A DNA stretch of 64,000 bases from an uncultured virus (IMG/VR IMGVR_UViG_3300031088_000821) (taxonomy: Duplodnaviria; Heunggongvirae; Uroviricota; Caudoviricetes): IMG/VR virus record IMGVR_UViG_3300031088_000821; one strand, given 5' to 3'. The position numbers and the translations under genes are program-made. This document shows positions 529 through 48,770 of the stretch, one piece after another. The first letter of the stretch is position 1. Each line of letters begins with the position of its first letter. A model generated the notes under the pieces. The model worked only from the letters and a program-made list of their open reading frames with translations. It did not search any database and was not told the DNA's origin.

Positions 529-655
529 TTTGCCATACACACATAGGAAAGATATAGTTGTCATATCCTGAAAGTTTTCATCTTCAGCGACCCACAGCAA
601 TAGAAGATTTCACAGAAATTAATAGAGCCCAAAAAGACGTATAGAAAGATTCCCC

Positions 656-937
656 ATGGAAATCACAGCAAACAACCCCCACACAGAGGCCGCCGTCGAT
701 ACCGAGCAGCTCTGGTCAGTGCTAACCCTTAGAGCCCTCGAAGAGCAGCTGGCAGCTAGCAAAGAGATCGAAGGATTCGTGGAAGTCAGAGCGCTCGTAG
801 ACGAGCTCAGCACCGAGTTTGCGCGAAGGGATCCTCTCTATATTGCCAACCTCTTCGAGGCAGTTCAGGCAGTTGCAGAGCTTCGTGGTCGCACCTTGGA
901 TGATGTGGAAGGTCCAGAGCTCACGGCGCTAACTTGA
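656..937 (+). CDS. Hypothetical protein
   Basis: 93 aa ORF on the dominant strand filling the nrdI-trxB gap. Confidence 0.6.
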   Translation: MEITANNPHTEAAVDTEQLWSVLTLRALEEQLAASKEIEGFVEVRALVDELSTEFARRDPLYIANLFEAVQAVAELRGRTLDDVEGPELTALT

Positions 938-947
938 GCGCCATTGT

Positions 948-953
948 TAGGAT
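948..953 (+). promoter_or_regulatory. -10 hexamer TAGGAT, 6 nt before the trxB ATG (probable leaderless transcript)
   Basis: GTTAGGAT-agtccc-ATG, no SD; same geometry at several other genes. Confidence 0.6.
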
Positions 954-959
954 AGTCCC

Positions 960-1865: not shown

Positions 1866-1900
1866 TGTGTTAGAACCAGAGCTATCAAAGGGAGGGTCCC

Positions 1901-2851
1901 ATGGCAAAATCTCGTTTTCACACCAACGATGAGGGCCGCACCCTGCCCTGTGATGCTGCTCCAGGCAACTGCAAGTTTATCCACGGATCTACTCCCGAAG
2001 AGGCTGCATCCAACTGGCAGCTCACCATGGCTTCCCAGCTCATGCCAAAAGCTGTGAGCAGATCAGCGGAATACAAGCGGCGTATAGAGCTTTCCGAGAG
2101 ACCCCTGAAGTCCATGGATGATGGGGAGCTCGAAGAGGCTATTCTACTCGAGTCGAGAGCGCTAGAACTTGACACCCAGCGAATACAGGAAGCTGTTAAT
2201 CTAGCAAGGGAGCTCCACGCCCACCAGCGCAGGAAGGGCAATCGAGGTTCTTTGGAAAATCCGCCCTACATAGAGCACCCCCTGAGAAACACGCTGCGGC
2301 TCATACGCATGGGTGTAAAAGATCAAGAAACCGTCGAAGGATCCATTCTCCACGACACCGTAGAAGACGGTTCAGGTGTCTTTGCTCGCAAGTACCACGG
2401 CTACTCTCGCCGACAAAGCACCGATGAGGAGCAAACTCGAAAGCTGCTCTTGGCTCATCTAAAACTTCGCTTCCAAGGCCGCACTGCTGAAATAGTGCTC
2501 GCAGTTTCCAATCCCATAGAAAATAATCGGGATCTCACTCCCGAAGAGAAGAGGGCCAACTACAAGCGCCACGTGGCGGAGCAGATCTCTCGGGATTCGG
2601 CTGTTTTTCTCGTGAAGACAAGCGACTTCATCGACAATGCCACTGGACTTTACCACGGCCAGGGCTCCATGGATCCTCAGAAACTGGCAAATCAGGCTCA
2701 AAAGTACTTGGATACTTTGGGTTCCTTTGAGGACGCCTACAATAAGCTCCATTTGCCCATTCCTGAGAGATCAAAGGTGCTCATTGGCAACGCCTTTGCG
2801 ATCACTCGTAAGCGACTCGCTCGAATCATAGAGGGAAAACCCGCACGGTAA
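1901..2851 (+). CDS. RelA/SpoT-type HD hydrolase (small alarmone hydrolase-like) with N-terminal HCCH module
   Basis: LHAHQRRKG..PYIEHP..ILHDTVED..VKTSDFIDNA; N-terminus FH-x9-C-x6-C-x3-H; SD GGAGGG. Confidence 0.8.
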   Translation: MAKSRFHTNDEGRTLPCDAAPGNCKFIHGSTPEEAASNWQLTMASQLMPKAVSRSAEYKRRIELSERPLKSMDDGELEEAILLESRALELDTQRIQEAVNLARELHAHQRRKGNRGSLENPPYIEHPLRNTLRLIRMGVKDQETVEGSILHDTVEDGSGVFARKYHGYSRRQSTDEEQTRKLLLAHLKLRFQGRTAEIVLAVSNPIENNRDLTPEEKRANYKRHVAEQISRDSAVFLVKTSDFIDNATGLYHGQGSMDPQKLANQAQKYLDTLGSFEDAYNKLHLPIPERSKVLIGNAFAITRKRLARIIEGKPAR

Positions 2852-2899
2852 TATACACGATATTATTGCTTTCCAGGAGATAGAAGCAGAGGAGTTTTC

Positions 2900-3649
2900 A
2901 TGGTGAAGCGCTCTAGGCGATTCGTCGCGGCCATTGGAGTTGCGGCTACAGCTCTATTGGCTCTAACGGGTTGCGTGGAGGTGGACGCCACTATTGACCT
3001 CAACGGTGACGGCAGAACTGGTAACCTCAGCTATATGATGAGCTACTCTAAAGAGCAGCTTGCAGAGACTTTTCCAGTGGTGACGGATGAAGAGTTTGAG
3101 GCAATCGAAGGCGAGCCAGATTTTGGCGCATTGCGCGAAGAGGACCTCTGCAAAGAAGCCTTAAGCCGAATGGGGGTAGAAGAACAGCTGTCAAAAATGG
3201 CTGCGAACTTCACCCTAGAGGAAACTGAAACTCACTGCATAGCTGAAACTAGCACACCTATCTCCTATAGATCGGGAGCGGTCACCACAAAAATCAACGG
3301 TTCAGAGCAGCTCCTAGATGGCATTTCTCTGACCCAAAATGATGGCAAAGTGGCCTTCACCATGGATATTGCCAACATGGAGCTCTATGAGTCCAATGAG
3401 ATTTCCATTGATAGCTTCAGAGTTGTAGTCAACTTTCCCGCCGAAGTAGTTGAAACGAATGGCACTATAGATGGCAACTCTGTCAGCTGGGAGATCGATG
3501 GTCTTTCGGAGGATGGTGAGCTCTGGGCTACGGGGAATCTTCCACCCTTCGGCGGGATTCCAGTTCTGGCTATCGCTGGCGGTGTGTTGCTCGCGGTCGC
3601 TATCGGCGCGGGTGGATTCCTGCTTTACAGAAGAAAATCTACAAGATAG
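2900..3649 (+). CDS. Lipoprotein with C-terminal TM anchor (LppM/DUF3153-like)
   Basis: Lipobox LTGC, V.FP.EVVETNG..DGNSVSW motif, C-terminal hydrophobic helix followed by RRK. Confidence 0.65.
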   Translation: MVKRSRRFVAAIGVAATALLALTGCVEVDATIDLNGDGRTGNLSYMMSYSKEQLAETFPVVTDEEFEAIEGEPDFGALREEDLCKEALSRMGVEEQLSKMAANFTLEETETHCIAETSTPISYRSGAVTTKINGSEQLLDGISLTQNDGKVAFTMDIANMELYESNEISIDSFRVVVNFPAEVVETNGTIDGNSVSWEIDGLSEDGELWATGNLPPFGGIPVLAIAGGVLLAVAIGAGGFLLYRRKSTR

Positions 3650-3671
3650 ATTAGCTGAGATTTTGCGTTTA

Positions 3672-3707
3672 AATCGCTCCCCGTGTGATGATGCATGGGG
3701 AGCGATT
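3672..3707 (+). terminator. Probable intrinsic terminator
   Basis: AATCGCTCCCC / GGGGAGCGATT inverted repeat followed by T-rich sequence, just after the 3649 stop. Confidence 0.65.
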
Positions 3708-3850
3708 CCTTTGCTTTGTTGATCTAAAGCCTGGCATATTCGATCTACAGGGTCCCTCTCTGCGCCAGTGTAGCCGCGGCTCTGAAATCGAAAAATCCAG
3801 CGGGAGATCCACCACTTCAAAGGTGGTTTCTCGGCTTTAGAATGGACTCC

Positions 3851-5290
3851 ATGACTATTCGGAAATACCACATGACTCCCGAGGGGCCAGCTCTCTGCAA
3901 AGCAGACCCCTCCAACCCCAGGAGCCGTGGCTGCAAATACAGTGGCCAGCATTTTTCGACAGCTGTTGAAGCAGAGCGAGCCTACGCTAAAATGATGGGT
4001 GGAGAGCTCCCCACAAGTGGCAAAAAGAGCGTAGGCCGAAGCGGCCATTTCCGAGGCGAAAGCGCTCTGCTCATGGATTTGGAGCTCACTCCGGATGAGG
4101 GCACTCAAATCGCTATCGGGCGATTGGCCCAAGCGGGGCTCACGCCGCTGGTGGTGGGTGGCGCCGTGCGAGATGGCATTCTCGGTGAGCACCCCAAGGA
4201 CTTCGACATCGAAGTTCACGGCGCAGCGAACTTCCAGCAGCTCTCCAGAGCGCTGGGCAAGGACGCTAAGCTCAACCTCACTGGAAAGTCCTTCGGAGTG
4301 CTAAAAGCACAGTTCCGACAGGCTGATGGCAGCTGGTCTGCCGATGTGGATCTCGCTCTTCCCCGCAGGGACTCCAAGGTGGGAGATGGCCACAGGGGCT
4401 TTGAGGTGGAGGTGGACCCTACCATGAGCCTCGAAGAGGCCACAGCTCGCCGGGACCTCACCGTTAATGCCCTTTTCTGGGACCCCCAAACCAGGCAGGT
4501 TGTAGACCTCCACGGCGGACTCGAAGACATGGATCGCCGGCGGCTACGCCATGTTTCGGATGCCTTTTCGGAGGATCCCCTCAGAGTGCTTCGAGTTGCC
4601 CGCTTCTCAGCTAAGCTGGGCTTCTCCGTGGCCGAAGAGACCAATGAGCTCTCCCAGCGCTTGGCGCCGACATTCCACGATCTCTCCTCGGAGAGGGTTC
4701 GGGGAGAGCTTTCGCGGATGGTGATCCAGCGCCATTTCACAGAGGGCTACAAGTTCCTGGAGTCCAGCGGATGGCACCGCGAACTCGGCGATCTTTCCAG
4801 ATTGTCCATGGAGGAGCTCACAGAAAAGCTCCGCAGGGCAGATTCCTACAGCCGCAGTGTCCAGAGTAGTCCCGATAGGGTAGCCCACCTGGCAGTGCTA
4901 GCAAGAGCTGTGGAAAAGACTGGTGGCAATGCTTCTTCTACTGTAGCCCACTTTGTTGCATCCTCCAGGGAGCAGCAAAAGGCCGTAGCTCTGGCTAAAG
5001 CTGAGCTTCCTACAAGCCACTCATCTGCGGCTCTGAGGCAGTGGGCCTTCGACCAGGGGAAGCTCTCGGGGCGAGCTATTTTGCTTTCTCGAGGCGAAGA
5101 GGATAGGGCAGAGCTCGAAGCGCTCCGAGGGAAGCTCGAAGCGTTGGATATTCTGGACGGCCCCGAACCAGATGGCTTCGACTCGAGGTCCCTCATTGCG
5201 AACTACCGAAGTTCTCATCCCGGCATCAAGGATGGTCCTTGGATTAGAGAACTTCTCCAGAAAGCCCGGTCGAAGCAATATGCTCGCTAG
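3851..5290 (+). CDS. tRNA nucleotidyltransferase (CCA-adding/poly(A) polymerase family) with N-terminal HCCH module and no evident HD domain
   Basis: VGGAVRD..DFDIEV, RRDLTVNAL, EDPLRVLRVARF, SERVRGEL; start 3851 preferred over 3842 because TAGAAT lies 7 nt upstream and the N-terminus aligns with the other HCCH proteins. Confidence 0.88.
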   Translation: MTIRKYHMTPEGPALCKADPSNPRSRGCKYSGQHFSTAVEAERAYAKMMGGELPTSGKKSVGRSGHFRGESALLMDLELTPDEGTQIAIGRLAQAGLTPLVVGGAVRDGILGEHPKDFDIEVHGAANFQQLSRALGKDAKLNLTGKSFGVLKAQFRQADGSWSADVDLALPRRDSKVGDGHRGFEVEVDPTMSLEEATARRDLTVNALFWDPQTRQVVDLHGGLEDMDRRRLRHVSDAFSEDPLRVLRVARFSAKLGFSVAEETNELSQRLAPTFHDLSSERVRGELSRMVIQRHFTEGYKFLESSGWHRELGDLSRLSMEELTEKLRRADSYSRSVQSSPDRVAHLAVLARAVEKTGGNASSTVAHFVASSREQQKAVALAKAELPTSHSSAALRQWAFDQGKLSGRAILLSRGEEDRAELEALRGKLEALDILDGPEPDGFDSRSLIANYRSSHPGIKDGPWIRELLQKARSKQYAR

Positions 5291-5355
5291 AGATATTTTG
5301 CTAGATCTTTTCTAGCACATTAGAACATCATTCCAATCATAGGAGGAGTGGACCA

Positions 5356-6210
5356 ATGGCCATCAGATACCACATCAAGGACGACGGCACCCCCGGAAGG
5401 TGCAGCGCCGCGTCCCCGGAGTCCTGCCCTAAGACCCAGGCGGGAGATTCCTTCCATGGTACCCTCGCGGAGGCCACCGTTGAGTCCGAGCGCCGCTTCG
5501 AGGCAAAGCACGGTAAGGCGCCGGCCGCAAACCGCGAGGAAGTTAACTTCTCAAAGCTCGAAGCAACTAAGGTATTTTCCGATAGCCACACAATGAGCCC
5601 CCAGCCTCTAGATCTTTCCCAGGTTGCTCCAAGTCAGCTCTACTACGATTCCCGAGGCAATGTCTATCTCGTGGAAAGCTGCTCCAAGGGGTCTTTTGCC
5701 ACCATGAATCCCGTGAACGAAAAGGGAGCTCCCGAGGGGGAGCCCGGCAACGGCTCTGTAAGGGTTGAGCAAAAAGATGCGGGCAAGTTCCGAAAACTAG
5801 AGCGCAAGGCCGATCCCCGCTACACGGACAGCGTTGGTGGCCACTCGGAGTCAAAGGCCGTAAAAGAGATGCCCAGAACGGGTCACCTAGACAGGGCTGT
5901 ATCTGCTCAAGTTTCCTATAGGGACGAGAATGGCAATCAGAAATCTGTGGAGCTCATCGCGCCTGTCGGAAGATTGACAGATCAGAAGAGGATTGCCATC
6001 GGTAGGCAGCTCTTCGCCTTCAGTGGCAAAGACCCCAAGCGCTATGAGGATGCCTCGGACGAAGCCAAGCTCAACTGGGCTAATCAAAAGCTCATGAGAA
6101 GAAGAGATCTTCGCTGGACTGCCGATGGCAATGGTGACGTTTTCTACACTCACGATTTTGGTAGCGGTGGTTCCCATTCCGACAAGAAGGTTCTCTACCT
6201 AGACATCTGA
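5356..6210 (+). CDS. Hypothetical protein with N-terminal HCCH module
   Basis: SD AGGAGGAG; MAIRYHIKDDGTPGRCSAASPESCPK..FHGTLAEA. Confidence 0.8.
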   Translation: MAIRYHIKDDGTPGRCSAASPESCPKTQAGDSFHGTLAEATVESERRFEAKHGKAPAANREEVNFSKLEATKVFSDSHTMSPQPLDLSQVAPSQLYYDSRGNVYLVESCSKGSFATMNPVNEKGAPEGEPGNGSVRVEQKDAGKFRKLERKADPRYTDSVGGHSESKAVKEMPRTGHLDRAVSAQVSYRDENGNQKSVELIAPVGRLTDQKRIAIGRQLFAFSGKDPKRYEDASDEAKLNWANQKLMRRRDLRWTADGNGDVFYTHDFGSGGSHSDKKVLYLDI

Positions 6211-6267
6211 TTGTTGCATAGTAAACTCTGGTGTGATAGTGTTGCTTAGCTAATCAACATTGGAGAA

Positions 6268-6654
6268 ATGATGTCCAACATCTTGCTTGTCGATGACCTT
6301 CGCAACTTCCGCGAGGACGTGCTTGCTCAGAGCGGCATTGTTGTGGATGATTCTCGCAGCACAAATCATCTTCTCCGAATCTGTCGAACCTCCCAGAGCG
6401 CTGTAGAGGTCTTGGGCACCTATGACCTCCATTGGGACCAGGTCTGGCTAGACCACGACCTCGGCGGCGACGACACCACGATGGCAGTAGTGGATTACAT
6501 CATTTTTCGCCACGATGAGGGCAATCCTATCTCCGTGGGGAACTACATCATTCACAGCTCCAACCCCGTGGGAGTGCGGCGAATCGCAGCTGCCCTACAG
6601 TCCGTTGGCCGCAACTCTGTGATCGTGGATCCTCGAGATTTTTTCACCGTTTAA
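6268..6654 (+). CDS. Cyclic-phosphate-processing receiver-like domain protein (cREC)
   Basis: ILLVDDLR..VWLDHDLGG..IIHSSNPVG signature of the RNA-repair-associated receiver family. Confidence 0.8.
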   Translation: MMSNILLVDDLRNFREDVLAQSGIVVDDSRSTNHLLRICRTSQSAVEVLGTYDLHWDQVWLDHDLGGDDTTMAVVDYIIFRHDEGNPISVGNYIIHSSNPVGVRRIAAALQSVGRNSVIVDPRDFFTV

Positions 6655-6737
6655 GCTCAGTCTATTTTAGGCGTCTTTCGTGCATTAGAAAAACTTTCAC
6701 CATTTACTCAAAGTATGCGCGCACGAGGAGATTTCAG

Positions 6738-7274
6738 ATGGCTAAGGGACAGTTCCACATCGGTAGGAATGGACCCGCTCCCTGTAGCGTAGATCCATCC
6801 AACCCCAACTCCGTGGGTTGCCCCTACGGTGCTACAGGTCACTATTCAACCCTCGCAGAGGCCGAAGCTGTCTACGCTGAAACACAAGCCAGCTCACTCT
6901 TTCCCACCACCACGCGAGCTAACGCATCAATCCGCATGGGGAGAAAGAGGGAAGATCTTCAGCACACTTTCGATGGCCTGGTAGCACAGCGCTGCTACGG
7001 CATTTCCTATGACAGTAGAGCCAAGAGCTACACAGCAGATGATTCCGAGAGCCTCCAGCGGTTCTGCAGTGAGCTCGAAGATAGCGCTAATGGGGAGCTC
7101 AGCGTCCACATCAGCTACGATGACGAGGCAGAAGATGTCATCATCAGCGTGGATGTGCCCGAACTCGAACTTGAGATCGAAAACCAAAACGCCGAGGAAG
7201 ATCGCCGAGAGTACTTCCAGTGGTCTCAGGATAGGGCCTTTGAGAACGCCGAATACTGGCGCTCAACCATGTAG
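6738..7274 (+). CDS. Hypothetical protein with N-terminal HCCH module
   Basis: SD GAGGAG; MAKGQFHIGRNGPAPCSVDPSNPNSVGCPYGATGHYSTLAEA. Confidence 0.8.
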   Translation: MAKGQFHIGRNGPAPCSVDPSNPNSVGCPYGATGHYSTLAEAEAVYAETQASSLFPTTTRANASIRMGRKREDLQHTFDGLVAQRCYGISYDSRAKSYTADDSESLQRFCSELEDSANGELSVHISYDDEAEDVIISVDVPELELEIENQNAEEDRREYFQWSQDRAFENAEYWRSTM

Positions 7275-7357
7275 TAAAATCCTGCGGCTCTATTACCGCT
7301 CTCATATTGCTTCTTTGGTTCTATTAGTGTATGATGGCATCATAGAAAGGTGGGCAA

Positions 7358-7729
7358 ATGAGCTCTTTACTACTGGAAGCTACCATCAGCCGCTGGGAAA
7401 AATGCCGCGAAGAGAACGAAGCTGACAAGCACCTCGCAACTCCTGAACAGCGGGAAGCTTGGGATAGGCTAAACCAAAGCACCACTCAGGAGCTTCTAGC
7501 TATTGTGGAGGGGTTTGATGGATCTCTTACCCGGGAAGATAAGAAGTATCTCATCGCCCTCAATGAGATGATCGACAGCGCTGAAAGAATCAGCCGTGAA
7601 GAGCTCGAAGCTGCGAAGGCCAAGCGCGACGAAGAGGAGAGGCTGGCTAAAGAGGCAGAGCGCCGCAGGGCGGCCGAGATCAACAAGACTAAGAAAACTC
7701 TGTTGGAAAAGCTGGCTCCAAAGCACTAG
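7358..7729 (+). CDS. Hypothetical coiled-coil protein
   Basis: SD-like AGAAAGGT; charged helical sequence. Confidence 0.65.
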   Translation: MSSLLLEATISRWEKCREENEADKHLATPEQREAWDRLNQSTTQELLAIVEGFDGSLTREDKKYLIALNEMIDSAERISREELEAAKAKRDEEERLAKEAERRRAAEINKTKKTLLEKLAPKH

Positions 7730-7747
7730 TAGAAAGAGCGACCACCC

Positions 7748-8326
7748 ATGAGTTCCACCATAGACCCCTATGAAGATGCGAATAGTCCCATGCTCTCTGG
7801 GAAAATCACTATACCTTCGAGGCCCATCGAGGCGGGGGTCTATGGCTGGGGCTGGGTCAGCTATGGTGGCTACAATGCCTCAAGGTCTAGCGGAAAATCT
7901 TCACCCACAGAGCTGAAGCTCTATCTCCACGATGATGTGGTGGATCGCCGTAAGATCAAGCGGCTGCAAAAGCATTTTCAGCGACCCGAATGGCTTAACA
8001 CAGCTCTGATCTACGCGCCAGTGGTGCTAGGTCTTATGCTGGCCGGCACAGCTGCTATGAGTCCCTATCTTCTGTTGGCGGGTTTCTTTCTCTCAGCTTG
8101 GGGCATGTGGAATCGCTATAAGCTCACTCAAACCAATTTCATATTTCTCCAGTTTGATCGCAGCGTAGAGAACTACAAAGTGGGCAGAGAGCTCCTCCGA
8201 GCGCTGAGCCACAAGGATCTGCTCCGGGATGATGTCTACGCTTTTTTCAATCTGAAGGCAACCGCCAGGGAGTTCCATAAAACGATGGCGGATCTCTATT
8301 CGGATGAGGACAGCTATCTGGATTGA
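7748..8326 (+). CDS. Hypothetical membrane protein (2 TM)
   Basis: Central hydrophobic hairpin. Confidence 0.65.
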   Translation: MSSTIDPYEDANSPMLSGKITIPSRPIEAGVYGWGWVSYGGYNASRSSGKSSPTELKLYLHDDVVDRRKIKRLQKHFQRPEWLNTALIYAPVVLGLMLAGTAAMSPYLLLAGFFLSAWGMWNRYKLTQTNFIFLQFDRSVENYKVGRELLRALSHKDLLRDDVYAFFNLKATAREFHKTMADLYSDEDSYLD

Positions 8327-8387
8327 AGCTTCTGAGCACCATGATATGTTGAACTCATAGGCTTACTAGCTTCAGGAGGATGCGCCC

Positions 8388-9038
8388 ATGACTTCCACTA
8401 GGATCAGATTGCTCCAAGCGGGCGCTATTATCCTCATCGGTGGCTTCGCTCTTAGCGGCTGCACGGCTGGAGAAGAAATCGTTCCAGAGGGTCCAACTGT
8501 GATTCCGAGCACCACCACCCCAAGCCCCACTCCAGCTGCAGCTGATTCGAAGGCCACTGCGGAAAGCGCGGCCGCCACGGTCAACGAGTTCATGGAGCTC
8601 GCTACGAGCTATCCCACCGCAGATGACCTGGCGGTGCTGGGCCTGCCTGAAGATGCCGACATAGATACCACCAATGAGGCTTTTATCTCCATGGGGGAAC
8701 TCAGCGCCGAGGATCTCGCCGAGAAGATGGAAAGTGTCTATGCTACCCATTCCATCGGCAAGCTACTCTACTTCGAAGAGGATAGCTCCAAGGTGCAAAA
8801 CCAATACCAGGCCATCTATATGCTCGAAATGGCTCGCATTTCTACGGCTGAAATAGATGAAGAGCCATTTGCTCTCACAGCCATCGAGCCCTCTTCCATT
8901 GAAATCTCAAGCTCCGATGGGAAAACCATAGCCAGCGTCAAGCTCGGCGAAGGCACAGAGCCAGAGCCCGTCCTTGTCTTCGTAGACGGATCATGGAAGC
9001 TCATCGGTTCAGAGCTCATTCAAGCATCGGCAGAATAG
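8388..9038 (+). CDS. Lipoprotein
   Basis: SD AGGAGG, lipobox LSGC, Pro/Thr linker, C-terminal VDGSWKL. Confidence 0.75.
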   Translation: MTSTRIRLLQAGAIILIGGFALSGCTAGEEIVPEGPTVIPSTTTPSPTPAAADSKATAESAAATVNEFMELATSYPTADDLAVLGLPEDADIDTTNEAFISMGELSAEDLAEKMESVYATHSIGKLLYFEEDSSKVQNQYQAIYMLEMARISTAEIDEEPFALTAIEPSSIEISSSDGKTIASVKLGEGTEPEPVLVFVDGSWKLIGSELIQASAE

Positions 9039-9060
9039 CCACAGTCACCTAGGAGGAATA

Positions 9061-9645
9061 ATGGAGCTAACCAGAGAAGATCTCGAAAGCACATTCCGAA
9101 AGATCGAGGAAGTGCTTCCCACAAGCGCAGAAGAGCTTCGGCACTACGGCCAAGAGCTCAGCGAGCTTTCCTATAATCCAGCGGGTCCCGACGAGCCCAT
9201 CGGCAAGGCACTTGGAGAGAAATACCCAGGAGCCAGTTTCTACAACTGGGCGGATGGTGCTGGCAACAGTGACAGCCTCTATGTCTTCCCCGCCAGCGAG
9301 GGCCACGGAGATCGGGCTATTTATGTGATCTACGACCACGAGAGCGCCCTCAACTTCTACGGTGAAAAGGCTCCCACGGGCTTCAGGCTTCAGCACGTGC
9401 TCTACGAAGAGGTGCCCGAAGATCTCAAAGCTGCTCTCACGGGTCCCGAGGGCGAGCTATTGCTCATAGAGGATGGCTATGGCAGGTCTCTCTATCACGG
9501 CTCAGCTATGATCTACCTCGAAGACGGAGCATGGCATCTTCCCGAATCCTACGTGAAGCTGGCTCTCAAATACGGGGAAGACGGTGGGCTTCGCTACTTT
9601 GTTGATCTCGAAGAGCTTCGCAAGGAAGCAGAAAAAGCGGATTAG
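9061..9645 (+). CDS. Hypothetical protein
   Basis: SD AGGAGG; acidic globular ORF. Confidence 0.7.
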   Translation: MELTREDLESTFRKIEEVLPTSAEELRHYGQELSELSYNPAGPDEPIGKALGEKYPGASFYNWADGAGNSDSLYVFPASEGHGDRAIYVIYDHESALNFYGEKAPTGFRLQHVLYEEVPEDLKAALTGPEGELLLIEDGYGRSLYHGSAMIYLEDGAWHLPESYVKLALKYGEDGGLRYFVDLEELRKEAEKAD

Positions 9646-9671
9646 AAGTCGCTAGCGATTTAGCACCATTT

Positions 9672-9711
9672 GAGGTCCCAGTTGTATAGCTGGGACCTCT
9701 TGGCGTATGAT
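9672..9711 (+). promoter_or_regulatory. Promoter TTGTAT-18-TATGAT with a 10-bp inverted repeat flanking the -35
   Basis: GAGGTCCCAG(9672-9681)-TTGTATAG-CTGGGACCTC(9690-9699); TATGAT 9706-9711 is 6 nt before ATG 9718. Confidence 0.6.
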
Positions 9712-9717
9712 CTACAT

Positions 9718-10491
9718 ATGAACACCACCTTTGACCTCAAGAGCTTCCTGCTTCGGCGAACTGCTCCCGCGGAGCTCCGCGCCATGCGAGCTGATGGCAC
9801 ACTGGCGGCAAAGCTTCCCGAACTTGCCGCCATGGAAAGCAAGCACCGGGGTCACAAGGACAATGTGGAGCACTCCATTCAGGTGCTGGAAAATGCCAGA
9901 GAGCTCTCGGAGAGCCCCGATGACGTAGTGCTCTTCGCAGCGGCGCTTTTCCATGATGTGGGCAAGCCCAAGAGCCTTTCCTTTGAGGCTGGCAAGGCCA
10001 CCTTCCGGAACCATGAGCACATTGGTGCTAAAATGGCTCGCAAGTTCCTGGTGAAGTACGGCTTCACAGTGGATGAGATCCGCGAGATCGTAGTGCTCAT
10101 CCGCGAGCACATGAGGGGCCATACTTTCAAGGAGGGTTGGACTGATTCGGCTATCCGGCGACTGGCCAATGAGGCTGGCTCTATCCAGCAGATTAAGCGC
10201 CTCGGCGTGATTTTTGGATCGGACGCCACCACGAAGCATCAGGCTAAGAAGCGGGCGTTCCGCGCTAACGCCTTGGAGCTCCGAGACGCCATGCTCCGCG
10301 TGCTCCAGGAGGATGCCCTCAAGGCTCGCCGACCAGCCATCGATGGCAATCGGGTCATGGAGCTCACGGGACTGACACCTGGCCGAGAGCTCGGATCCAT
10401 CATGAAGTTCCTCAACTCCGAGGAGGGCTTGGCCCTGAATCGGGAGGAAGCCGAAGCCATTGCCATGGAAATGGCGTCCCTCGGGGCATGA
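9718..10491 (+). CDS. Stand-alone HD-domain protein resembling the C-terminal half of actinobacterial CCA-adding enzymes
   Basis: LPEL..HKDNVEHS..AALFHDVGKP..F.NHEHIGA..HMR..WTDSAIRR..PAIDGNRVMELTGLTPGRELG; no NTase head. Confidence 0.82.
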   Translation: MNTTFDLKSFLLRRTAPAELRAMRADGTLAAKLPELAAMESKHRGHKDNVEHSIQVLENARELSESPDDVVLFAAALFHDVGKPKSLSFEAGKATFRNHEHIGAKMARKFLVKYGFTVDEIREIVVLIREHMRGHTFKEGWTDSAIRRLANEAGSIQQIKRLGVIFGSDATTKHQAKKRAFRANALELRDAMLRVLQEDALKARRPAIDGNRVMELTGLTPGRELGSIMKFLNSEEGLALNREEAEAIAMEMASLGA

Positions 10492-10575
10492 GCTGAGTAG
10501 GCAGCTTTTTGGGTGATATGGAACTCTACAGATAGATAGACCCCAGGACTTTAAGCAGAGAGGAAGGAACTGGCT

Positions 10576-10929
10576 TTGCTTCATCTTTCTGCTGACACCC
10601 TCAAGGAGTTCTCGAAGGCCATCATGGCGGTGGGTGAGCTCGAAGAGTACCGCGACAGGGAAGGCAACCCCGTTCGGCGCTATGAATCGTCCGATCTAGA
10701 GGTGCTTTTCTCCCGATTGGATGGTAGCTGGAAGTTCACGGGGCTTTCCTTCTGGCTTTTTGGTGCCAACTTCATCGTGGATGAAACCGGCGCTGTCTAC
10801 GCCATAGATGAAGATGAGGATATTGAATCTGTAGACTCGGTATTCATGATTTCAGATCGAGACATGAAGCTGGCCATTCGGTCCTACATCCAATGGCGAG
10901 TAAACGTGGCTAGGAAGCTCCAGTTCTAG
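10576..10929 (+). CDS. Hypothetical protein
   Basis: TTG start with GGAAGGA SD. Confidence 0.55.
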   Translation: MLHLSADTLKEFSKAIMAVGELEEYRDREGNPVRRYESSDLEVLFSRLDGSWKFTGLSFWLFGANFIVDETGAVYAIDEDEDIESVDSVFMISDRDMKLAIRSYIQWRVNVARKLQF

Positions 10930-10991
10930 GCATCCATGGATTCCTAAAAGCTGCATTAGAACAGATCCTATCCATGAACTAGGAGGAAACC

Positions 10992-11462
10992 ATGGCAACA
11001 TACCATCTCACCCCCACCGGGCCAGATCGATGCCAAGCAGATCCCTCCAACCCCCGCGCTCGGGGCTGCCCCTACGGCAACGCCGGAGGTCCCCACTTCG
11101 ACAACATCGAAGACGCCCAGGCCGCCTATGAGGTGCAGATGGAGTCCCAGTATGGCCCCGGCGGCTTTGCAGCTGCTGCCCGCAAGCGCCACGAGCCTGC
11201 CTACAGGGCCTTCACACAGATGGAGAAACTCGAACGGAGCCACGAAGCCTACGCGATGGCTCAGAGCTATGCAGCAGCTCGAAGGGCGGCGCCAAGCAGA
11301 GGTTCCAGGAGCCGCTCTAGGAGCACCCAAGGAAAAATCTCTAAGCTCGCCATGAGGGGCGGGAAGCAGCTCTTTAAGGCTGTTGGACCCACGCCGCGAA
11401 ATGTGAAAAGATTCCACGACATGCTCCACAGGGGAACACTGGATCTCACGGGTGGCCGCTAG
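10992..11462 (+). CDS. Basic hypothetical protein with N-terminal HCCH module
   Basis: SD AGGAGG; MATYHLTPTGPDRCQADPSNPRARGCPYGNAGGPHFDNIEDA; Arg/Ser-rich C-terminus. Confidence 0.8.
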   Translation: MATYHLTPTGPDRCQADPSNPRARGCPYGNAGGPHFDNIEDAQAAYEVQMESQYGPGGFAAAARKRHEPAYRAFTQMEKLERSHEAYAMAQSYAAARRAAPSRGSRSRSRSTQGKISKLAMRGGKQLFKAVGPTPRNVKRFHDMLHRGTLDLTGGR

Positions 11463-11542
11463 GCGCTAGACTCGGAGTTGCTCTAGGGCGGGTCTCCATG
11501 ATAGGGTGAATGCTAACTGATCCCTAGCTAAGGACTTCTCCC

Positions 11543-13327: not shown

Positions 13328-13359
13328 GCAACTCACTAGCTCCGAAAGGACCCCAAGCC

Positions 13360-14409: not shown

Positions 14410-14515
14410 ACAATAGCTGGATCTTAGCCCAAAACAGCTCTTTCAGGCTAGCGAAGATGTCATCCATGTACTTTCGCTAGGATGGCTACTAGCAAACCAT
14501 AGAGATAGGATTTCC

Positions 14516-43954: not shown

Positions 43955-46396
43955 TTGGCCCTTTTCGAACGGGAAGAACTAAACCACGAGAGCAGCTCCC
44001 AGGCAGATTCTAGCGCGGGAAAAGTTCTTCTCTTTGTGCTGGGTATTCCCCTGCTCCCAGCTGTGCTCTTCGGATTGCTGTTCTATTGGGTTTTTCTGAG
44101 AACTCTTAAGTTCCGTCGGAGCGTGTCAGCGCTCGTTGCGCTAACCATTGTAGCCGCAGCGGGTATTTTCATGGCCACTAGCCAAGCAATACCTCGGCTC
44201 ATGTCTGCGGTAATGGATTTCAGCAATCTAGGGGAAAACTGGCCTCAAACTCTCTACTTCGCTATACCCTTTTCTTTGGCGTTGGGCGCGCTTTTGGGTT
44301 TGGGTTATATCCTCTGGGAAGTGAAGGACATTCTCAACAATCCCCACAGGGTGGAGCTTCCCGGCTTCTGGACCTACAAGCTCAAATGGAGGAAAACTCC
44401 CTTGGAGCTCTGGAGAATGAAGCGCTCCATAGCTGCGCTCAAATCTGGCTCTCTCATGGATGGAGACAGGAGTCCTTTGGGCTACGAGGAGAGCAAAGAT
44501 CGGGTAGGCTACCGGTTTGTGGAGGAAGCCCGCCGGCACACCATCATCACGGGAGCCGCTGGTTCCGGTAAGACCATTTCCATGCTGGCCCTCATGCGGG
44601 CTGACATCGAAGCTGGAAGAACTGTTGTGGCAGTTGACTTCAAGAGATCTCCAGAGTTCGCAGCGAAGCTGGCAGCCTGGGCCCATGAGTTCGAGATCCC
44701 CTTCTATCACTTTGAGAAGGGTAGCCCCGAATCCTATAGGATCCAATACTCCGAGGGGCAGTCCACCTACGACCCCTTCGCTTCGGGCTCTGGCTCCGAA
44801 ATGGTGCTCAACATGCGAGAGTATGACAGCGCTTCGGCCGTCTATAAGCAGCACATGCAGCAGCTGCTTCAAATCATCTTCGCTATGATGGAGCAGGCAG
44901 ATAGAGCCAAGGCTCCCGAGGTCGACTGGGACCACGGTGGAATCTACATGTTGGCCTCCTGCCTCACGGACGCTAATCTCAATGATCTTCTCATCGCCTG
45001 CGAGGGAAAGCCGATTTTCCATGAGGCTTCCGAATATGTGCCTCTGGCGCTCTCTTCGAAGAGCGGCATGGAAAGCCATGCGCTGGAGCAGCTCCGAGGC
45101 CAGATGAGAACCATTGTGGCCTCCGCCTATGGCCGATGGTTCAAAATCGGCGATGGCAGCCGCAACATCGATCTCCTAAAGATGATGACCCAGAACCAGA
45201 ACATCATCCTCTTTTCCTTCAACTCCGAAGATGAGCCTGAGCTTTCCCGCTATGTGGGTTCCATGATCTTCGCTGATCTTCGAGCAGTTTCTAGCCACAT
45301 TAGGAACATGAAGGCCAGCAGGGATACCAATGTCTACGTGGACGAGTTCCAAGCGGTGCCACCCACTGCGGTGACTGGACTTCTGGAAAAGGCCCGAGAG
45401 TCTCGAATCGCCATGACATTGGCCCAGCAGGCCTTTGAGCAGATCATCACCTCCACCCAGGGAGGATCGGGCACGGGTGAGGCCTACCTGGATTCTATTT
45501 TGGTCACCTGTTCCAACTTCCTTATCCATGCTGGAATGACCCAGAACTCTGCAGAGCGGGTGTCGAAGCTCCTGGGGAAGGAGTGGAAAACCGTCTATGC
45601 CCGTACCAACAAATCCTCGGGCAGTTTCCTTAAAAACAACTTCTCCAATCGCCGCGATCAGATTGTCTCTGCTAGCAACCAAGAGGTCTGGCGGGTCGAG
45701 CCCTCGGAGATCATGCAGCTTTCAGCTCCATCTTCAGCCAATGGCTACAAGTCCACTGCCATACTCGTGAGCAAAGCCGTGGCGGATCCCGCCGTGGAAG
45801 CCAAGGGGACGATTGCCCGCACACTTTGGATGATTCCCCCGTCCATTGTTCTCGATGAATATGTAACTCCGATGGTGGGGAATGAAGCTGTAGCCGAAGC
45901 TGAAAATCTCTACGCCAGCCCACAGAGTGAGCTCTTCGTAGCTGATGAGGCAGCAAATAGATCAGCTGATTCCGTAACCTTCGAAGAAAATGCACTACAG
46001 AGCCAGGATGAGTTCGACTTCGATCAGTACTCCCATGGAGATGAGGATCACCAGGTGCAGGGCTATGGTGATGATTTCGATGGCGCCTTCGAGCAGATAG
46101 ATTTTTCTGCGGAAGAGGAAATCGAGGAAGATGATTTCACCATCGAAGAGATCGATGATGCCGACGATGATCTCCTCGGTAGCTTTGATCTCAAGAGCCC
46201 TCCTCCTTCTAAGCGGCCCTCCAGAGAAACAGCTCAACAAGCAGAGCGGCCGCCTCAGCGCCAACAGCCGCCCCGCCGTGCGCCCGAGGCTGAAACCAGA
46301 AGTCCCCAGAGGCCCATCGGAAAAACTGCTGGCATCCCCCGGGGTATTCCCAACTTTGCCGATGAGGTGGAAGAGGAAGCATTGCCCGATTTTTAG
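43955..46396 (+). CDS. Type IV secretion coupling protein (VirD4/TraD-like)
   Basis: N-terminal TMs, RHTIITGAAGSGKT, VDFK, VYVDEFQ, LEKARE..LAQQ; acidic tail. Confidence 0.88.
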   Translation: MALFEREELNHESSSQADSSAGKVLLFVLGIPLLPAVLFGLLFYWVFLRTLKFRRSVSALVALTIVAAAGIFMATSQAIPRLMSAVMDFSNLGENWPQTLYFAIPFSLALGALLGLGYILWEVKDILNNPHRVELPGFWTYKLKWRKTPLELWRMKRSIAALKSGSLMDGDRSPLGYEESKDRVGYRFVEEARRHTIITGAAGSGKTISMLALMRADIEAGRTVVAVDFKRSPEFAAKLAAWAHEFEIPFYHFEKGSPESYRIQYSEGQSTYDPFASGSGSEMVLNMREYDSASAVYKQHMQQLLQIIFAMMEQADRAKAPEVDWDHGGIYMLASCLTDANLNDLLIACEGKPIFHEASEYVPLALSSKSGMESHALEQLRGQMRTIVASAYGRWFKIGDGSRNIDLLKMMTQNQNIILFSFNSEDEPELSRYVGSMIFADLRAVSSHIRNMKASRDTNVYVDEFQAVPPTAVTGLLEKARESRIAMTLAQQAFEQIITSTQGGSGTGEAYLDSILVTCSNFLIHAGMTQNSAERVSKLLGKEWKTVYARTNKSSGSFLKNNFSNRRDQIVSASNQEVWRVEPSEIMQLSAPSSANGYKSTAILVSKAVADPAVEAKGTIARTLWMIPPSIVLDEYVTPMVGNEAVAEAENLYASPQSELFVADEAANRSADSVTFEENALQSQDEFDFDQYSHGDEDHQVQGYGDDFDGAFEQIDFSAEEEIEEDDFTIEEIDDADDDLLGSFDLKSPPPSKRPSRETAQQAERPPQRQQPPRRAPEAETRSPQRPIGKTAGIPRGIPNFADEVEEEALPDF

Positions 46397-48697: not shown

Positions 48698-48770
48698 GCT
48701 TAGACGTGTGCGCACCACTGCTGCGATATGATTTTCATTGGGAATATCTACTAACCACAAAGGACTCAGA

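What the first reader, a model, noticed from the sequence alone, without database searches (positions are those of the whole stretch)
1901..11462. Five unrelated proteins share one N-terminal His-Cys-Cys-His module: a candidate cargo-tagging system
Seen: the first ~45 aa of ORFs 1901 (RFHTNDEGRTLPCDAAPGNCKFIHGSTPEEA), 3851 (KYHMTPEGPALCKADPSNPRSRGCKYSGQHFSTAVEA), 5356 (RYHIKDDGTPGRCSAASPESCPKTQAGDSFHGTLAEA), 6738 (QFHIGRNGPAPCSVDPSNPNSVGCPYGATGHYSTLAEA) and 10992 (TYHLTPTGPDRCQADPSNPRARGCPYGNAGGPHFDNIEDA) fit [YF]H-x4-G-x3,4-C-x-[AV]-x4,9-C-x3,9-H-x4,5-[ED]A. Three contain an identical DPSNP. The rest of each protein is unrelated: an alarmone-hydrolase-like HD domain, a CCA-adding enzyme and three unknowns. 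Established: these enzyme families do not normally carry such an extension, and I cannot name the module. Inference: a zinc-binding address label that recruits diverse cargo to one partner, e.g. translocation through the element's conjugative T4SS into the recipient, or loading onto a DNA/RNA complex.
Basis: partly seen in the sequence, partly recalled or inferred. Interest (0 to 1): 0.92.

Follow-up and report, generated by a model that had tools for sequence, protein, structure and literature searches.

The report
Zinc-knuckle tag on giant-plasmid effectors
Five otherwise unrelated proteins here start with the same small, probably zinc-binding domain that no database describes; it heads hundreds of different enzymes in a family of giant, uncultivated conjugative elements and may dock them to one shared partner, possibly the DNA-transfer machine.

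Summary
Five + strand ORFs (starts 1901, 3851, 5356, 6738, 10992) share a ~55-aa N-terminal module. A profile built only from unrelated database proteins finds exactly these five in the six-frame window.

The module is a real and widespread family. 1,115 cluster representatives match at E<=1e-3. In 148 of the best 150 it starts within the first 10 residues. His-Cys-Cys-His is invariant in 152 of 152 aligned N-termini. It has no Pfam, NCBIfam, PHROG or PDB counterpart.

AlphaFold gives a beta-hairpin, loop, strand and helix knuckle joined to the cargo by a disordered linker. Cargo is very diverse: 77 BLAST clusters among 138 C-terminal regions. Named domains are mostly anti-defence or "polyvalent-protein" types (ArdC, ADP-ribosyltransferases, GmrSD/HNH, CCA enzyme, 2H, SprT, methylase).

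Carriers are giant (0.3-0.8 Mb), metagenome-only elements with a Gram-positive-type T4SS, their own replisome and tRNA arrays. Each holds several module genes. Module genes also share an upstream TTAGAA motif.

The function is not shown. My best reading (about 0.4) is a zinc-stabilised docking tag, most plausibly for the T4SS. Rivals are an AP2-like nucleic-acid-binding domain, another hub, or a promoter-plus-leader cassette.

The parts
1901..2851 (+). Module (about aa 1-54, nt 1901-2062) fused to a SpoT/RelA-type HD (alarmone-hydrolase-like) domain. This is the most divergent module copy.
   Evidence: HD_4, E 0.0058; TIGR00691, residues 98-157, E 4.5e-10; phrog_990; E 7.4e-6.
3851..5290 (+). 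Module (nt 3851-4015) fused to a CCA-adding enzyme / poly(A) polymerase head and RNA-binding region. The likely true start is 3851, not 3842.
   Evidence: PolyA_pol, E 4.2e-20; phrog_2244, E 1.8e-57.
5356..6210 (+). Module of the 'CPKTQAGDSFHGT' subtype (nt 5356-5520) fused to a cargo with no known family.
6738..7274 (+). Module (aa 1-51), disordered linker (aa 53-66) and an acidic alpha/beta cargo domain (aa 67-178).
   Evidence: pLDDT about 70-77 / below 50 / about 90; only weak RsfS- and nucleotidyltransferase-like matches, best E 0.35.
10992..11462 (+). Module (nt 10992-11156) fused to a short basic C-terminal region with no known family.
   Evidence: model pLDDT 80.6; E 1.7e-26.
1870..1875 (+). 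TTAGAA upstream motif, 31 nt before the start codon of ORF 1901.
3837..3842 (+). TTAGAA(T) motif 14 nt before ATG 3851. This spacing suggests a leaderless or very short-leader mRNA (inference).
5320..5325 (+). TTAGAA motif (within CATTAGAAC) 36 nt before ATG 5356.
6685..6690 (+). TTAGAA motif (within CATTAGAAA) 53 nt before ATG 6738.
10956..10961 (+). TTAGAA motif (within CATTAGAAC) 36 nt before ATG 10992.
6268..6654 (+). Neighbour without the module: cREC (cyclic-phosphate-processing receiver) domain protein. Part of an apparent tRNA/RNA-end repair island.
   Evidence: PF20274, E 3.9e-17; phrog_1479.
9670..10491 (+). Neighbour without the module: HD/HDIG protein resembling the C-terminal half of actinobacterial CCA enzymes. 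It is the only non-module gene in the window with TTAGAA upstream (at 9642-9647).
   Evidence: (TIGR02692, positions 217-444, E 4.8e-47).
43955..46396 (+). VirD4/TraD-type coupling protein. It has 3 N-terminal TM segments, an ATPase core, and a long acidic C-terminal tail ending in a conserved LPD motif.
   Evidence: (TIGR03743, E 5.5e-21).
48738..50210 (+). TcpF/VirB4-like conjugal transfer ATPase (matches the N-terminal half of the model).
   Evidence: NF052333, E 5.9e-16.
51160..52026 (+). NikA/MbpA-like relaxosome accessory protein.
55294..59718 (+). Protein of 1,474 aa with a CD3337/EF1877-type mobilome membrane domain (VirB6-like role inferred).
59725..61311 (+). Cell-wall hydrolase (Phage_lysozyme2 domain), of the kind found in Gram-positive T4SSs.

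Best explanation
The shared N-terminus is a previously undescribed, independently folding domain of about 55 aa. It forms a beta-hairpin, a variable loop, a third short strand and an amphipathic acidic helix, held together by one metal ion (most likely Zn2+) through an invariant His...Cys...Cys...His tetrad. A flexible linker joins it to whatever cargo follows.

The domain belongs to a family of giant (about 0.3-0.8 Mb) extrachromosomal elements known only from metagenomes. These elements carry a Gram-positive-type type IV secretion/conjugation system. Each encodes several to many proteins that begin with this domain. The cargo is largely of the anti-defence or 'polyvalent-protein' kind. In this window it includes a tRNA-end repair set: a CCA enzyme and a SpoT-like HD protein, next to cREC and HD proteins.

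I propose the domain works as a docking tag. It binds one common partner, so that many unrelated enzymes are brought to the same place at the same time. The most plausible partner is the substrate-receiving side of the element's T4SS, so that ready-made counter-defence and repair proteins enter the recipient with, or ahead of, a DNA molecule that takes many minutes to transfer.

Shown: the domain exists, where it sits in the protein, which residues are invariant, the predicted fold, the cargo diversity, the type of carrier, and a shared upstream TTAGAA motif.

Inferred: zinc binding, partner binding, and translocation.
For: Family and position. A profile search of 1.84 billion representatives gave 1,115 hits at E<=1e-3 and 57 at E<=1e-10. 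In 148 of the best 150 the match starts at residue 1-10. The other two are artefacts, a tandem-repeat protein and an AP2-repeat protein.

Metal site. H, C, C and H are invariant in 152 of 152 N-termini, allowing a one-residue shift of the last His in 29. Ala43 is present in 148 of 152. The first His lies at residue 4-7 in 142 of 152.

Fold. The AF2 model has pLDDT 80.6 with E4-6, E11-13, H27-30 and H39-54. In full-length ORF 6738 the module is separated from a confident cargo domain by a linker with pLDDT below 50.

No known counterpart. Pfam, NCBIfam and PHROGs give nothing over the module. A PDB sequence-profile search gave 0 hits at E<=1. Foldseek against PDB gave 0 hits at E<=10. VIA-align over 48,161 chains gave a best Z of 3.0.

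Cargo. 138 C-terminal regions fall into 77 BLAST clusters. 25 of 148 proteins have a Pfam hit. These include ArdC-N+M78, ART-PolyVal, ADPrib_exo_Tox, PARP, GmrSD_C/HNH, LPD1, 2H-SAK, SprT-like, N6_N4_Mtase, YqaJ, pentapeptide and PolyA_pol (more GmrSD_C and 2H-SAK). This is largely the repertoire that Iyer et al. 2017 (PMC5512222; abstract and passages seen) assign to effectors delivered with invading DNA. The same cargo cluster occurs behind different module subtypes.

Carrier. The window holds a T4SS set: a coupling protein, a TcpF-like ATPase, a CD3337/EF1877 membrane protein, a NikA-like protein and a hydrolase. The 420,240-bp relative G001 shares 22 of 54 window proteins in synteny, including the T4SS. 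It has 7-8 module genes dispersed over the whole element. No capsid or portal was found in the 105 ORFs scanned. Contigs of 475.5 kb (the window's own), 673,773, 293,436 and 494,159 bp hold both the coupling-protein family and module proteins.

Precedent. A folded domain shared by diverse T4SS effectors and bound by VirD4 exists in the XVIPCD (PMC8740702; abstract and passages).

Charge. The module has a mean net charge of -1.7, which is unusual for a nucleic-acid binder.

Dispersal. Cargo genes are spread over a 0.4-Mb element rather than clustered in a leading region. This makes delivery of pre-made proteins advantageous (inference).
Against: No experiment and no expression data exist, and the host is uncultivated.

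Known T4SS signals are C-terminal or internal, whereas this domain is N-terminal.

The module is so far seen only in one lineage of elements, all of which carry the T4SS. Co-occurrence is therefore confounded by common descent.

One protein (P0037) has three tandem copies. That pattern is more typical of a ligand- or nucleic-acid-binding domain than of a secretion signal.

The third strand plus helix aligns to AP2 DNA-binding repeats (hhalign probability 74% over 21 columns). Weak BFVD hits include HNH and AP2 homing endonucleases (E above 2).

Most named cargo domains act on DNA or RNA, so a nucleic-acid-targeting role would also fit.

Module genes carry their own TTAGAA motif, which is absent upstream of the T4SS genes. 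They are therefore not simply part of the transfer operons.

The strictly N-terminal position could be a by-product of a mobile promoter-plus-leader cassette rather than a functional requirement.
Confidence: 0.4

Rival explanations
1. The module is a zinc-stapled, AP2-like (three strands plus helix) nucleic-acid-binding domain. It brings DNA- and RNA-acting enzymes to their substrate, such as incoming single-stranded DNA, host DNA or tRNA. It has nothing to do with secretion.
For: The topology is beta-beta-beta-alpha. hhalign to AP2 repeats gives probability 74% over the strand-helix unit. The profile picked up an AP2-repeat protein. P0037 has three tandem copies. Residues 1-30 are mildly basic, with a mean charge of +1.3. 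The named cargo is mostly nucleic-acid enzymes: HNH/GmrSD_C, methylase, YqaJ, SprT, ArdC, CCA enzyme and 2H.
Against: The whole module is acidic on average, at -1.7. Pfam AP2 and other DNA-binding models do not match even at E<=0.1. The similarity covers only 21 columns and misses the zinc hairpin. No AP2 or integrase-type chain appeared among the VIA matches with Z>=2, which is inconclusive. Nucleic-acid-binding fingers are usually found at either end of a protein or inside it, not at residue 1 in 148 of 148 true hits. Some cargo (pentapeptide, LRV, and the Zeta-toxin look-alikes) is not nucleic-acid directed.
Confidence: 0.25
2. The module docks cargo to some other common hub inside the cell. 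Candidates are the element's own replisome or partition apparatus, host RNA polymerase or ribosome, or the module itself through oligomerisation. In this reading it acts in the cell where the protein is made.
For: The module is an independent domain on a flexible linker. Its acidic amphipathic helix suits protein contacts. Several paralogues occur per element. The elements encode their own replisome, sigma factor and ParA. A shared upstream motif points to a co-expressed set.
Against: No candidate hub has been identified. The cargo set looks like what other elements send into new hosts (PMC5512222). There is nothing that specifically supports this reading over the T4SS reading.
Confidence: 0.15
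3. The conserved unit is a mobile 5' gene cassette, made of the TTAGAA promoter-like motif, a ribosome-binding site and a leader domain. It spreads by recombination and gives cargo genes a common expression programme. In this reading the zinc domain serves stability, turnover or metal/redox sensing, not targeting.
For: TTAGAA lies within 80 nt upstream of 5 of 5 module genes against 1 of 48 other genes in the window (Fisher p 2e-6). In G001 it lies upstream of 5 of 7 module genes against 9 of 398 other ORFs (p 4.6e-7). Module genes stand first in their apparent transcription units. The same cargo occurs behind different module subtypes. The three DPSNP copies are still 61-74% identical at the DNA level over 70 nt.
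Against: Strong protein-level conservation with invariant metal ligands in 152 of 152 sequences, at only about 30-50% identity, argues for a selected protein function. A cassette explains the position but not what the domain does, so it is compatible with the other readings.
Confidence: 0.12
4. The elements are in fact giant phages. The module is then a virion-packaging tag, like the T4 capsid-targeting sequence or MuF, for proteins that are injected with the DNA.
For: G001 is classed as a complete virus with terminal repeats in IMG/VR. Structural look-alikes in the ESM Atlas and BFVD sit in records labelled as viruses. The elements have tRNA arrays, a tmRNA and nucleotide-metabolism genes, as jumbo phages do.
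Against: No capsid family was found (PF05065). No portal or full terminase was found among 105 G001 ORFs of 270-800 aa; only short P-loop matches appeared. A full T4SS set is present instead. Neither the module nor the coupling protein matches 50,697 deposited phage records. ORFs outside 270-800 aa and 2 ORFs across locus joins were not scanned.
Confidence: 0.05

Closest known systems
XVIPCD domain of Xanthomonas X-T4SS effectors (X-Tfes)
   Same: It is a conserved, folded domain shared by enzymatically diverse proteins of one T4SS-bearing system, several per genome. In X-Tfes it is the recognition handle for the coupling protein VirD4 (PMC8740702).
   Different: XVIPCD is about 120 aa, C-terminal, has an alpha-alpha-beta-beta-beta fold and no metal site. 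Its cargo are antibacterial toxins with immunity partners. Here the domain is about 55 aa, N-terminal and HCCH. There is no sequence or fold match. The cargo looks like counter-defence or repair enzymes, and binding to VirD4 is untested.
Polyvalent proteins of phages and conjugative elements (Iyer, Burroughs, Anand, de Souza, Aravind 2017)
   Same: The cargo domains are the same: ART-PolyVal, LPD1, ArdC-N, zincin/M78/SprT-like, DNA methylase and 2H. The setting is also the same, T4SS-bearing mobile elements, and so is the proposed role of acting early in a new host (PMC5512222).
   Different: Polyvalent proteins string 2-15 domains into one giant polypeptide. Here each cargo is a separate, mostly single-domain protein that starts with the same small tag. 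In the passages I searched, the paper has no hits for 'cysteine', 'Zn-ribbon' or 'secretion signal' that describe such a module.
N-terminal marker or trafficking domains of polymorphic effectors (MIX/FIX/RIX for T6SS, LXG for T7SS; recalled, not tested)
   Same: They have the same architecture logic: one conserved terminal domain followed by many unrelated C-terminal enzymatic domains, with many paralogues.
   Different: They use different secretion systems, have different folds and no metal site. Their cargo are toxins with adjacent immunity genes, which are not evident here. This comparison rests on recall; no call tested it.
T4 capsid-targeting sequence on internal proteins and Alt (recalled)
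   Same: It is an N-terminal tag that sends pre-made anti-restriction and ADP-ribosylating proteins into the next host along with the DNA.
   Different: It is a peptide of about 10 residues that is cleaved off in the prohead of a virus. Here the tag is a folded zinc domain in elements with no recognisable virion genes.
AP2 / integrase-type three-stranded-sheet-plus-helix DNA-binding domains
   Same: The order of secondary structure is the same, and both have a shared 'G-x-F-x-T-x-x-E-A-x-x-A-Y' strand-helix signature.
   Different: AP2 has no metal ligands, and Pfam AP2 does not match the module. The alignment covers only 21 columns. The module is acidic overall.

Membership tests
XVIPCD-type T4SS effector recognition domain | Sequence or fold similarity to XVIPCD | tested here: not met
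   No Pfam family matches the module at E<=0.1 or E<=1e-3 in 148 relatives. The predicted fold is beta-beta-(loop)-beta-alpha, not alpha-alpha-beta-beta-beta.
XVIPCD-type T4SS effector recognition domain | C-terminal position with a Gln-rich tail | tested here: not met
   The module starts at residue 1-10 in 148 of 150 best hits.
XVIPCD-type T4SS effector recognition domain | One conserved domain on many unrelated effectors in a T4SS-bearing replicon | tested here: met
   There are 77 cargo clusters among 138 C-terminal regions. The T4SS is present in the window and in G001.
XVIPCD-type T4SS effector recognition domain | Binds the VirD4 all-alpha domain and is required for translocation | not testable with these tools
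   This needs binding and mating assays. No cultivated host is known.
Polyvalent proteins (Iyer et al. 2017) | 2-15 effector domains in one polypeptide | tested here: not met
   The listed proteins are 68-598 aa. 25 of 148 have a Pfam hit, nearly all covering a single cargo region; the exception is ArdC-N+M78 in P0007.
Polyvalent proteins (Iyer et al. 2017) | Characteristic domain repertoire (ART-PolyVal, LPD, ArdC, zincin, MTase) | tested here: met
   ART-PolyVal (P0121), LPD1 (P0034, P0082), ArdcN+Peptidase_M78 (P0007), N6_N4_Mtase (P0125, weak) and SprT-like (P0133, weak). ART-PolyVal in L008.
AP2 / integrase-like DNA-binding domain | Match to the family profile over the whole domain | tested here: inconclusive
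   Pfam gives no AP2 match. hhalign to nine AP2 repeats of P0114 aligns only 21 columns, with probability 74%. No AP2 chain appears among the VIA rows with Z>=2, which does not exclude the fold.
Structural zinc-binding knuckle or finger (generic) | Four invariant metal ligands at fixed places in a small domain | tested here: met
   H6, C15, C27 and H36/37 are present in 152 of 152 sequences.
Structural zinc-binding knuckle or finger (generic) | Ligands converge on one site; metal is bound | not testable with these tools
Metal analysis of purified protein is needed.
Known zinc-finger folds (C2H2, treble clef, zinc ribbon) | Structural match to a solved example | tested here: inconclusive
   The best VIA Z is 3.0 (Kunitz). 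zf-C2H2 entries score Z 2.0-2.3. Foldseek against PDB gives 0 hits.

The most novel reading that the evidence does not exclude
The HCCH domain is the substrate-recognition tag of a Gram-positive-type T4SS. It defines a whole secretome of separately encoded, ready-made counter-defence and tRNA-repair enzymes. Giant (0.4-0.8 Mb) uncultivated conjugative elements would inject these into recipients, because their DNA takes too long to enter for gene expression to protect it. That would make it the first N-terminal, metal-stabilised T4SS signal. It would also be a simple sequence handle for listing the effectors of these elements.
Probability: 0.3. Interest if true: 0.9.

Novelty: new variant of a known kind. 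Interest (0 to 1): 0.8.

Why it matters
The domain is a clean, easily searched marker, with invariant H-C-C-H at the very start of the protein. It picks out more than a thousand protein clusters, and most of their C-terminal parts have no known family.

If it is a delivery or docking tag, it gives a ready catalogue of candidate counter-defence effectors. It would also give a testable recognition signal for T4SSs of Gram-positive type, for which no effector signal is established. The EMBO J 2025 review passages I saw name only TSA/TSB, XVIPCD and a few system-specific cases.

The finding also draws attention to the carriers. These are elements of 0.3-0.8 Mb with a T4SS, their own replisome, 44 tRNAs and a tmRNA. 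They are absent from plasmid and phage databases and are labelled as viruses in metagenome catalogues.

Even if the domain proves to be a nucleic-acid-binding finger, it remains a new family with an unusual, strictly N-terminal architecture and a dedicated upstream motif.

Tried and rejected
Co-folding. I co-folded the module (alignment A2, residues 1-60) with the coupling protein (A6, residues 125-813) plus Zn. The result was no verdict: ipSAE 0.00 and 0.02 against a mark of 0.32, and the controls were not run. This is not evidence either way.

RNA runs. No RNA holder was listed for window 1800-11500, so nothing can be said about expression.

Deposited plasmids and phages. tblastn of the module (60 aa) and of P0080 (246 aa) against PLSDB plasmids and deposited phages gave no match. 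Short, about 35-45% identical queries are near the detection limit. Megablast of window 1-12000 against plasmids gave no match. The coupling protein gave only two distant plasmid hits at 25-26% identity and none in phages.

Pattern scans.
- Species genomes: 4 loci returned, all false positives on inspection.
- Metagenome contigs: 11 loci, of which 9 are true and L014 and L015 are false.
- IMG/VR: five scans gave one true locus (L016 = G001) and one false (L039).

These scans use narrow peptide patterns, so absence means little.

Whole genome and wider searches. No whole genome is held for the window. Metagenome records could not be searched whole. I could not get a handle on an actinobacterial species genome, so no phylum-wide survey was run.

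ESM Atlas. There was no usable feature hit. The structural look-alikes lie in clusters labelled as viruses and are leads only.

ORF 6738 cargo. Foldseek's best match is RsfS/iojap at E 0.35, followed by cGAS/TUTase-type nucleotidyltransferases. This is too weak to name a fold.

Other checks. Rfam gave no family in the window. Earlier findings of this scan gave nothing for the place or the sequence.

Considered and rejected:
- ZAS anti-sigma (H-x3-C-x2-C) and WhiB-like Fe-S domains. The ligand spacing is different and there is no Pfam match.
- A nucleotide-level (non-protein) cause of the conservation. The copies are only 61-74% identical in DNA, while the ligands are invariant.

Full report
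**Observation**

Their first ~55 residues align with invariant His, Gly, Cys, Cys and Ala.

- A profile made from the five separates them from the rest of the window, at E 3.9e-31 to 2.1e-18 against 0.047 for the next best. That test is circular.
- I therefore rebuilt the profile from 144 database N-termini, leaving out the window's own proteins and their near-identical orthologues. It again found exactly the five, at E 1.7e-26 to 7.4e-6, with the next best at 0.067.
- ORF 1901 is the outlier of the set.
- For the second gene, the start at 3851 (MTIRKYH...) fits the family. The first ATG at 3842 does not.

The C-terminal parts are unrelated to each other. One is a SpoT/RelA-type HD region, one is a CCA-adding enzyme, and three have no family. 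Phage CCA enzymes align only from residue 92-104 onward in all 436 matching records. The N-terminus is therefore an addition.

**A large, undescribed family**

An exhaustive profile search of 1.84 billion cluster representatives returned 1,115 proteins at E<=1e-3 and 57 at E<=1e-10.

- Among the best 150, 148 carry the match at residues 1-10 of proteins 68-598 aa long.
- The other two are artefacts. One is a 3,081-aa tandem-repeat protein whose single repeats are insignificant. The other is a protein made of AP2 repeats.
- In an alignment of 152 N-termini, His6, Cys15 and Cys27 are present in 152 of 152. The last His is also present in 152 of 152, shifted by one position in 29. Ala43 is present in 148 of 152.
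- The first His sits at residue 4-7 in 142 of 152. Residue 2 is mostly Ala (94), Ser, Thr or Val.

No characterised family matches:

- Pfam, NCBIfam and PHROGs have nothing over the module in the window proteins.
- Pfam has nothing in 148 relatives. Two sub-threshold matches, DUF5059 and DUF4545, brush the helix or linker.
- A PDB sequence-profile search found nothing at E<=1.
- Twenty clusters looked up by exact sequence come only from metagenome sources.
- BFVD holds four uncharacterised proteins of one metagenome-derived 'Siphoviridae sp.' record, with 25-35% identity to the module. The best has probability 1.00 and E 0.07.

**Structure**

With a 71-row alignment, AlphaFold2 gives a confident small domain with mean pLDDT 80.6. 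It has strands at 4-6 and 11-13, a short helix at 27-30, a two-residue strand at the second His, and a helix at 39-54. The four invariant ligands sit on these elements in a way that suits one tetrahedral site. I could not inspect coordinates, so zinc binding is inferred from conservation.

Full-length ORF 6738 folds as module (1-51), a linker with pLDDT below 50 (53-66), and a confident cargo domain with pLDDT about 90.

Foldseek finds no PDB match. An exhaustive VIA-align pass over 48,161 chains peaks at Z 3.0, with Kunitz modules first and C2H2 fingers at Z 2.0-2.3.

The module is acidic on average, at -1.7. The hairpin half is mildly basic (+1.3) and the helix is acidic (-3.0).

**Cargo**

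The 138 C-terminal regions of 60 aa or more fall into 77 BLAST clusters, 52 of them singletons. Some clusters contain proteins with different module subtypes. This points to shuffling between tag and cargo.

Only 25 of 148 proteins have any Pfam hit:

- ArdC-N plus an M78 peptidase
- six ADP-ribosyltransferase-type domains (ART-PolyVal, ADPrib_exo_Tox, PARP)
- three GmrSD_C/HNH
- two CCA-enzyme heads
- two LPD1
- single cases of 2H-SAK, SprT-like, DNA methylase, YqaJ, a nucleotidyltransferase, pentapeptide repeats, LRV and PGDYG

Further members from related loci add GmrSD_C, 2H-SAK and ART-PolyVal. This is largely the repertoire of the 'polyvalent proteins' that Iyer et al. proposed are sent into new hosts by phages and T4SS-bearing elements (PMC5512222; abstract and searched passages). 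Here, however, each domain is a separate protein behind the same small tag.

In the window, the tagged CCA enzyme and SpoT-like HD protein lie beside an untagged cREC protein and an HD protein resembling the C-terminal half of actinobacterial CCA enzymes. This looks like a tRNA/RNA-end repair island (inference).

In G001, the CCA enzyme carries a degenerate module-like N-terminus that the profile did not score.

**The carriers**

The window is part of a contig of about 475.5 kb.

- It encodes a VirD4/TraD-type coupling protein, a TcpF/VirB4-like ATPase, a CD3337/EF1877-type membrane protein, a NikA/MbpA-like protein and a cell-wall hydrolase.
- It also encodes NrdI, a thioredoxin-reductase-like protein, GyrB, topoisomerase I, DnaG, ThyX and PhoH.
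- It has no tRNA and no Rfam family.

One IMG/VR record, G001, is a relative. It is 420,240 bp and is classed as complete with terminal repeats.

- 22 of 54 window proteins have homologues there, in the same order. These include the coupling protein (38-40% identity) and the 1,474-aa membrane protein.
- It has 44 tRNA genes and a tmRNA in one array, and no 16S motifs.
- It has a replisome, two ribonucleotide reductases, a sigma factor, ParA and many transposases.
- No capsid or portal was found among 105 ORFs of 270-800 aa scanned with PHROGs. PF05065 gave no hit.
- It holds 7-8 module genes spread from 27 kb to 382 kb.

Other carriers show the same pattern. Two metagenome loci cut from contigs of 346 kb and 674 kb hold 4-5 and 3 module genes in 20 kb and 14 kb. 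Their neighbours resemble window genes.

Coupling-protein homologues number 114 at E<=1e-20. They sit on contigs of up to 828 kb, and eleven clusters have a longest contig of 290 kb or more. Contigs of 673,773, 293,436 and 494,159 bp hold both this protein and module proteins.

Neither the module nor the coupling protein has close relatives in 72,556 plasmid or 50,697 phage records.

The host is unknown. The best models (tRNA_CCA_actino, LppM, G5-SLT) hint at Actinomycetota, but I did not test this.

**A shared upstream motif**

Aligning the regions before the five genes showed an invariant TTAGAA, often as CATTAGAAC.

- It lies within 80 nt upstream of 5 of 5 module genes and 1 of 48 other genes in the window (Fisher p 2e-6). 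The one exception is the HD gene of the same island.
- In G001 it precedes 5 of 7 module genes against 9 of 398 other ORFs (p 4.6e-7).
- No T4SS gene has it.
- Module genes appear to head their transcription units.

I read this as a dedicated promoter or operator. That is inference; no transcript data could be found.

**How it most likely works**

The anatomy is a small metal-stapled domain on a flexible tether, at the front of very many unrelated enzymes, with several copies per element. This is the anatomy of an adaptor that takes different cargo to one partner.

I favour the T4SS substrate receptor as that partner (confidence about 0.4), for four reasons:

- The cargo is what other mobile elements deliver into recipients.
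- A T4SS is present in every carrier that could be checked.
- A folded shared domain is a proven T4SS handle in Xanthomonas (XVIPCD, PMC8740702).
- The cargo genes are scattered over elements so large that expression after entry would come late.

Several points count against this:

- Known T4SS signals are C-terminal or internal.
- One protein has three tandem modules.
- The strand-helix half resembles AP2 DNA-binding repeats.
- Most named cargo acts on nucleic acids.
- The motif-defined gene set is separate from the transfer genes.
- Co-occurrence with the T4SS is confounded by common descent.

The rivals are an AP2-like nucleic-acid-binding finger (0.25), another intracellular hub (0.15), a promoter-plus-leader cassette with a stability or sensing role (0.12), and a virion-packaging tag (0.05). 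A co-fold with the coupling protein gave no verdict and is not used.

**Novelty**

The domain itself is new to the libraries I could search. The architectural idea of one terminal marker with many effectors is known from XVIPCD, and by recall from MIX and LXG. I therefore rate the finding a new variant of a known kind, with high interest. The carriers deserve study in their own right.

Noticed in passing
whole window; G001 (L017-L038); contigs listed: The window belongs to a family of giant extrachromosomal elements, with contigs of 293-828 kb, several near 670-700 kb, and the window's own at about 475.5 kb. They carry a Gram-positive-type T4SS, their own replisome, RNR classes I and III, a sigma factor, ParA and many transposases. 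In G001 there are also 44 tRNAs plus a tmRNA (tag ANSDNFALAA). G001 is labelled a complete virus in IMG/VR, but no capsid or portal was found. The elements are absent from PLSDB and from deposited phages.
   Followed up: partly
window 1870-1875, 3837-3842, 5320-5325, 6685-6690, 9642-9647, 10956-10961: A TTAGAA (CATTAGAAC-like) motif lies upstream of all five module genes and one neighbouring HD gene, but of no other gene in the window. The same association holds in G001. It may be a dedicated promoter or operator. ATG 3851 lies only 14 nt downstream, so that mRNA may be leaderless.
   Followed up: partly
window 1901-11462: An apparent tRNA/RNA-end repair island: a SpoT-like HD protein, a CCA-adding enzyme, a cREC (cyclic-phosphate-processing receiver) protein, and an HD protein like the C-terminal half of actinobacterial CCA enzymes. 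These are interspersed with small unknown proteins and an LppM-type lipoprotein.
   Followed up: partly
window 34978-36384 and 36724-37779: Topoisomerase IA is split into two ORFs, covering Topoisom_bac positions 5-290 and 297-410, separated by about 340 nt. No Rfam intron family matched the window. The cause (frameshift, insertion or intein-like element) was not examined.
   Followed up: no
window 43955-46396: The coupling protein has a disordered, strongly acidic C-terminal tail of about 160 aa. Its last residues (L-P-D) are nearly invariant across 46 homologues. This may be a docking site.
   Followed up: no
window 48738-50210; G001 392381-393586: The TcpF/VirB4-like ATPase of the window matches only the N-terminal half of the TcpF model. 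In G001 a separate ORF, far from the T4SS cluster, matches the C-terminal part of the same PHROG (phrog_24614). The ATPase may be split.
   Followed up: no
window 11543-18453: A cluster holds a solute-binding-protein-VWA fusion, several unknown proteins (one of them a membrane protein) and a TelA-like protein. A TelA homologue is also present in G001.
   Followed up: no
P0037 (228 aa): One family member carries three tandem copies of the HCCH module (residues 1-60, 70-111, 145-188). It is the only internal occurrence seen among the 148 true hits.
   Followed up: partly
window 50203-51057: A GmrSD_C/HNH nuclease without the module sits inside the T4SS gene cluster and is conserved in G001 (38.5% identity). 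The same nuclease domain is a recurrent cargo of the module elsewhere.
   Followed up: no
G001 ends: IMG/VR reports direct terminal repeats for G001, but the first and last 50-500 bases of the fetched record are not identical. The repeat may have been trimmed.
   Followed up: no
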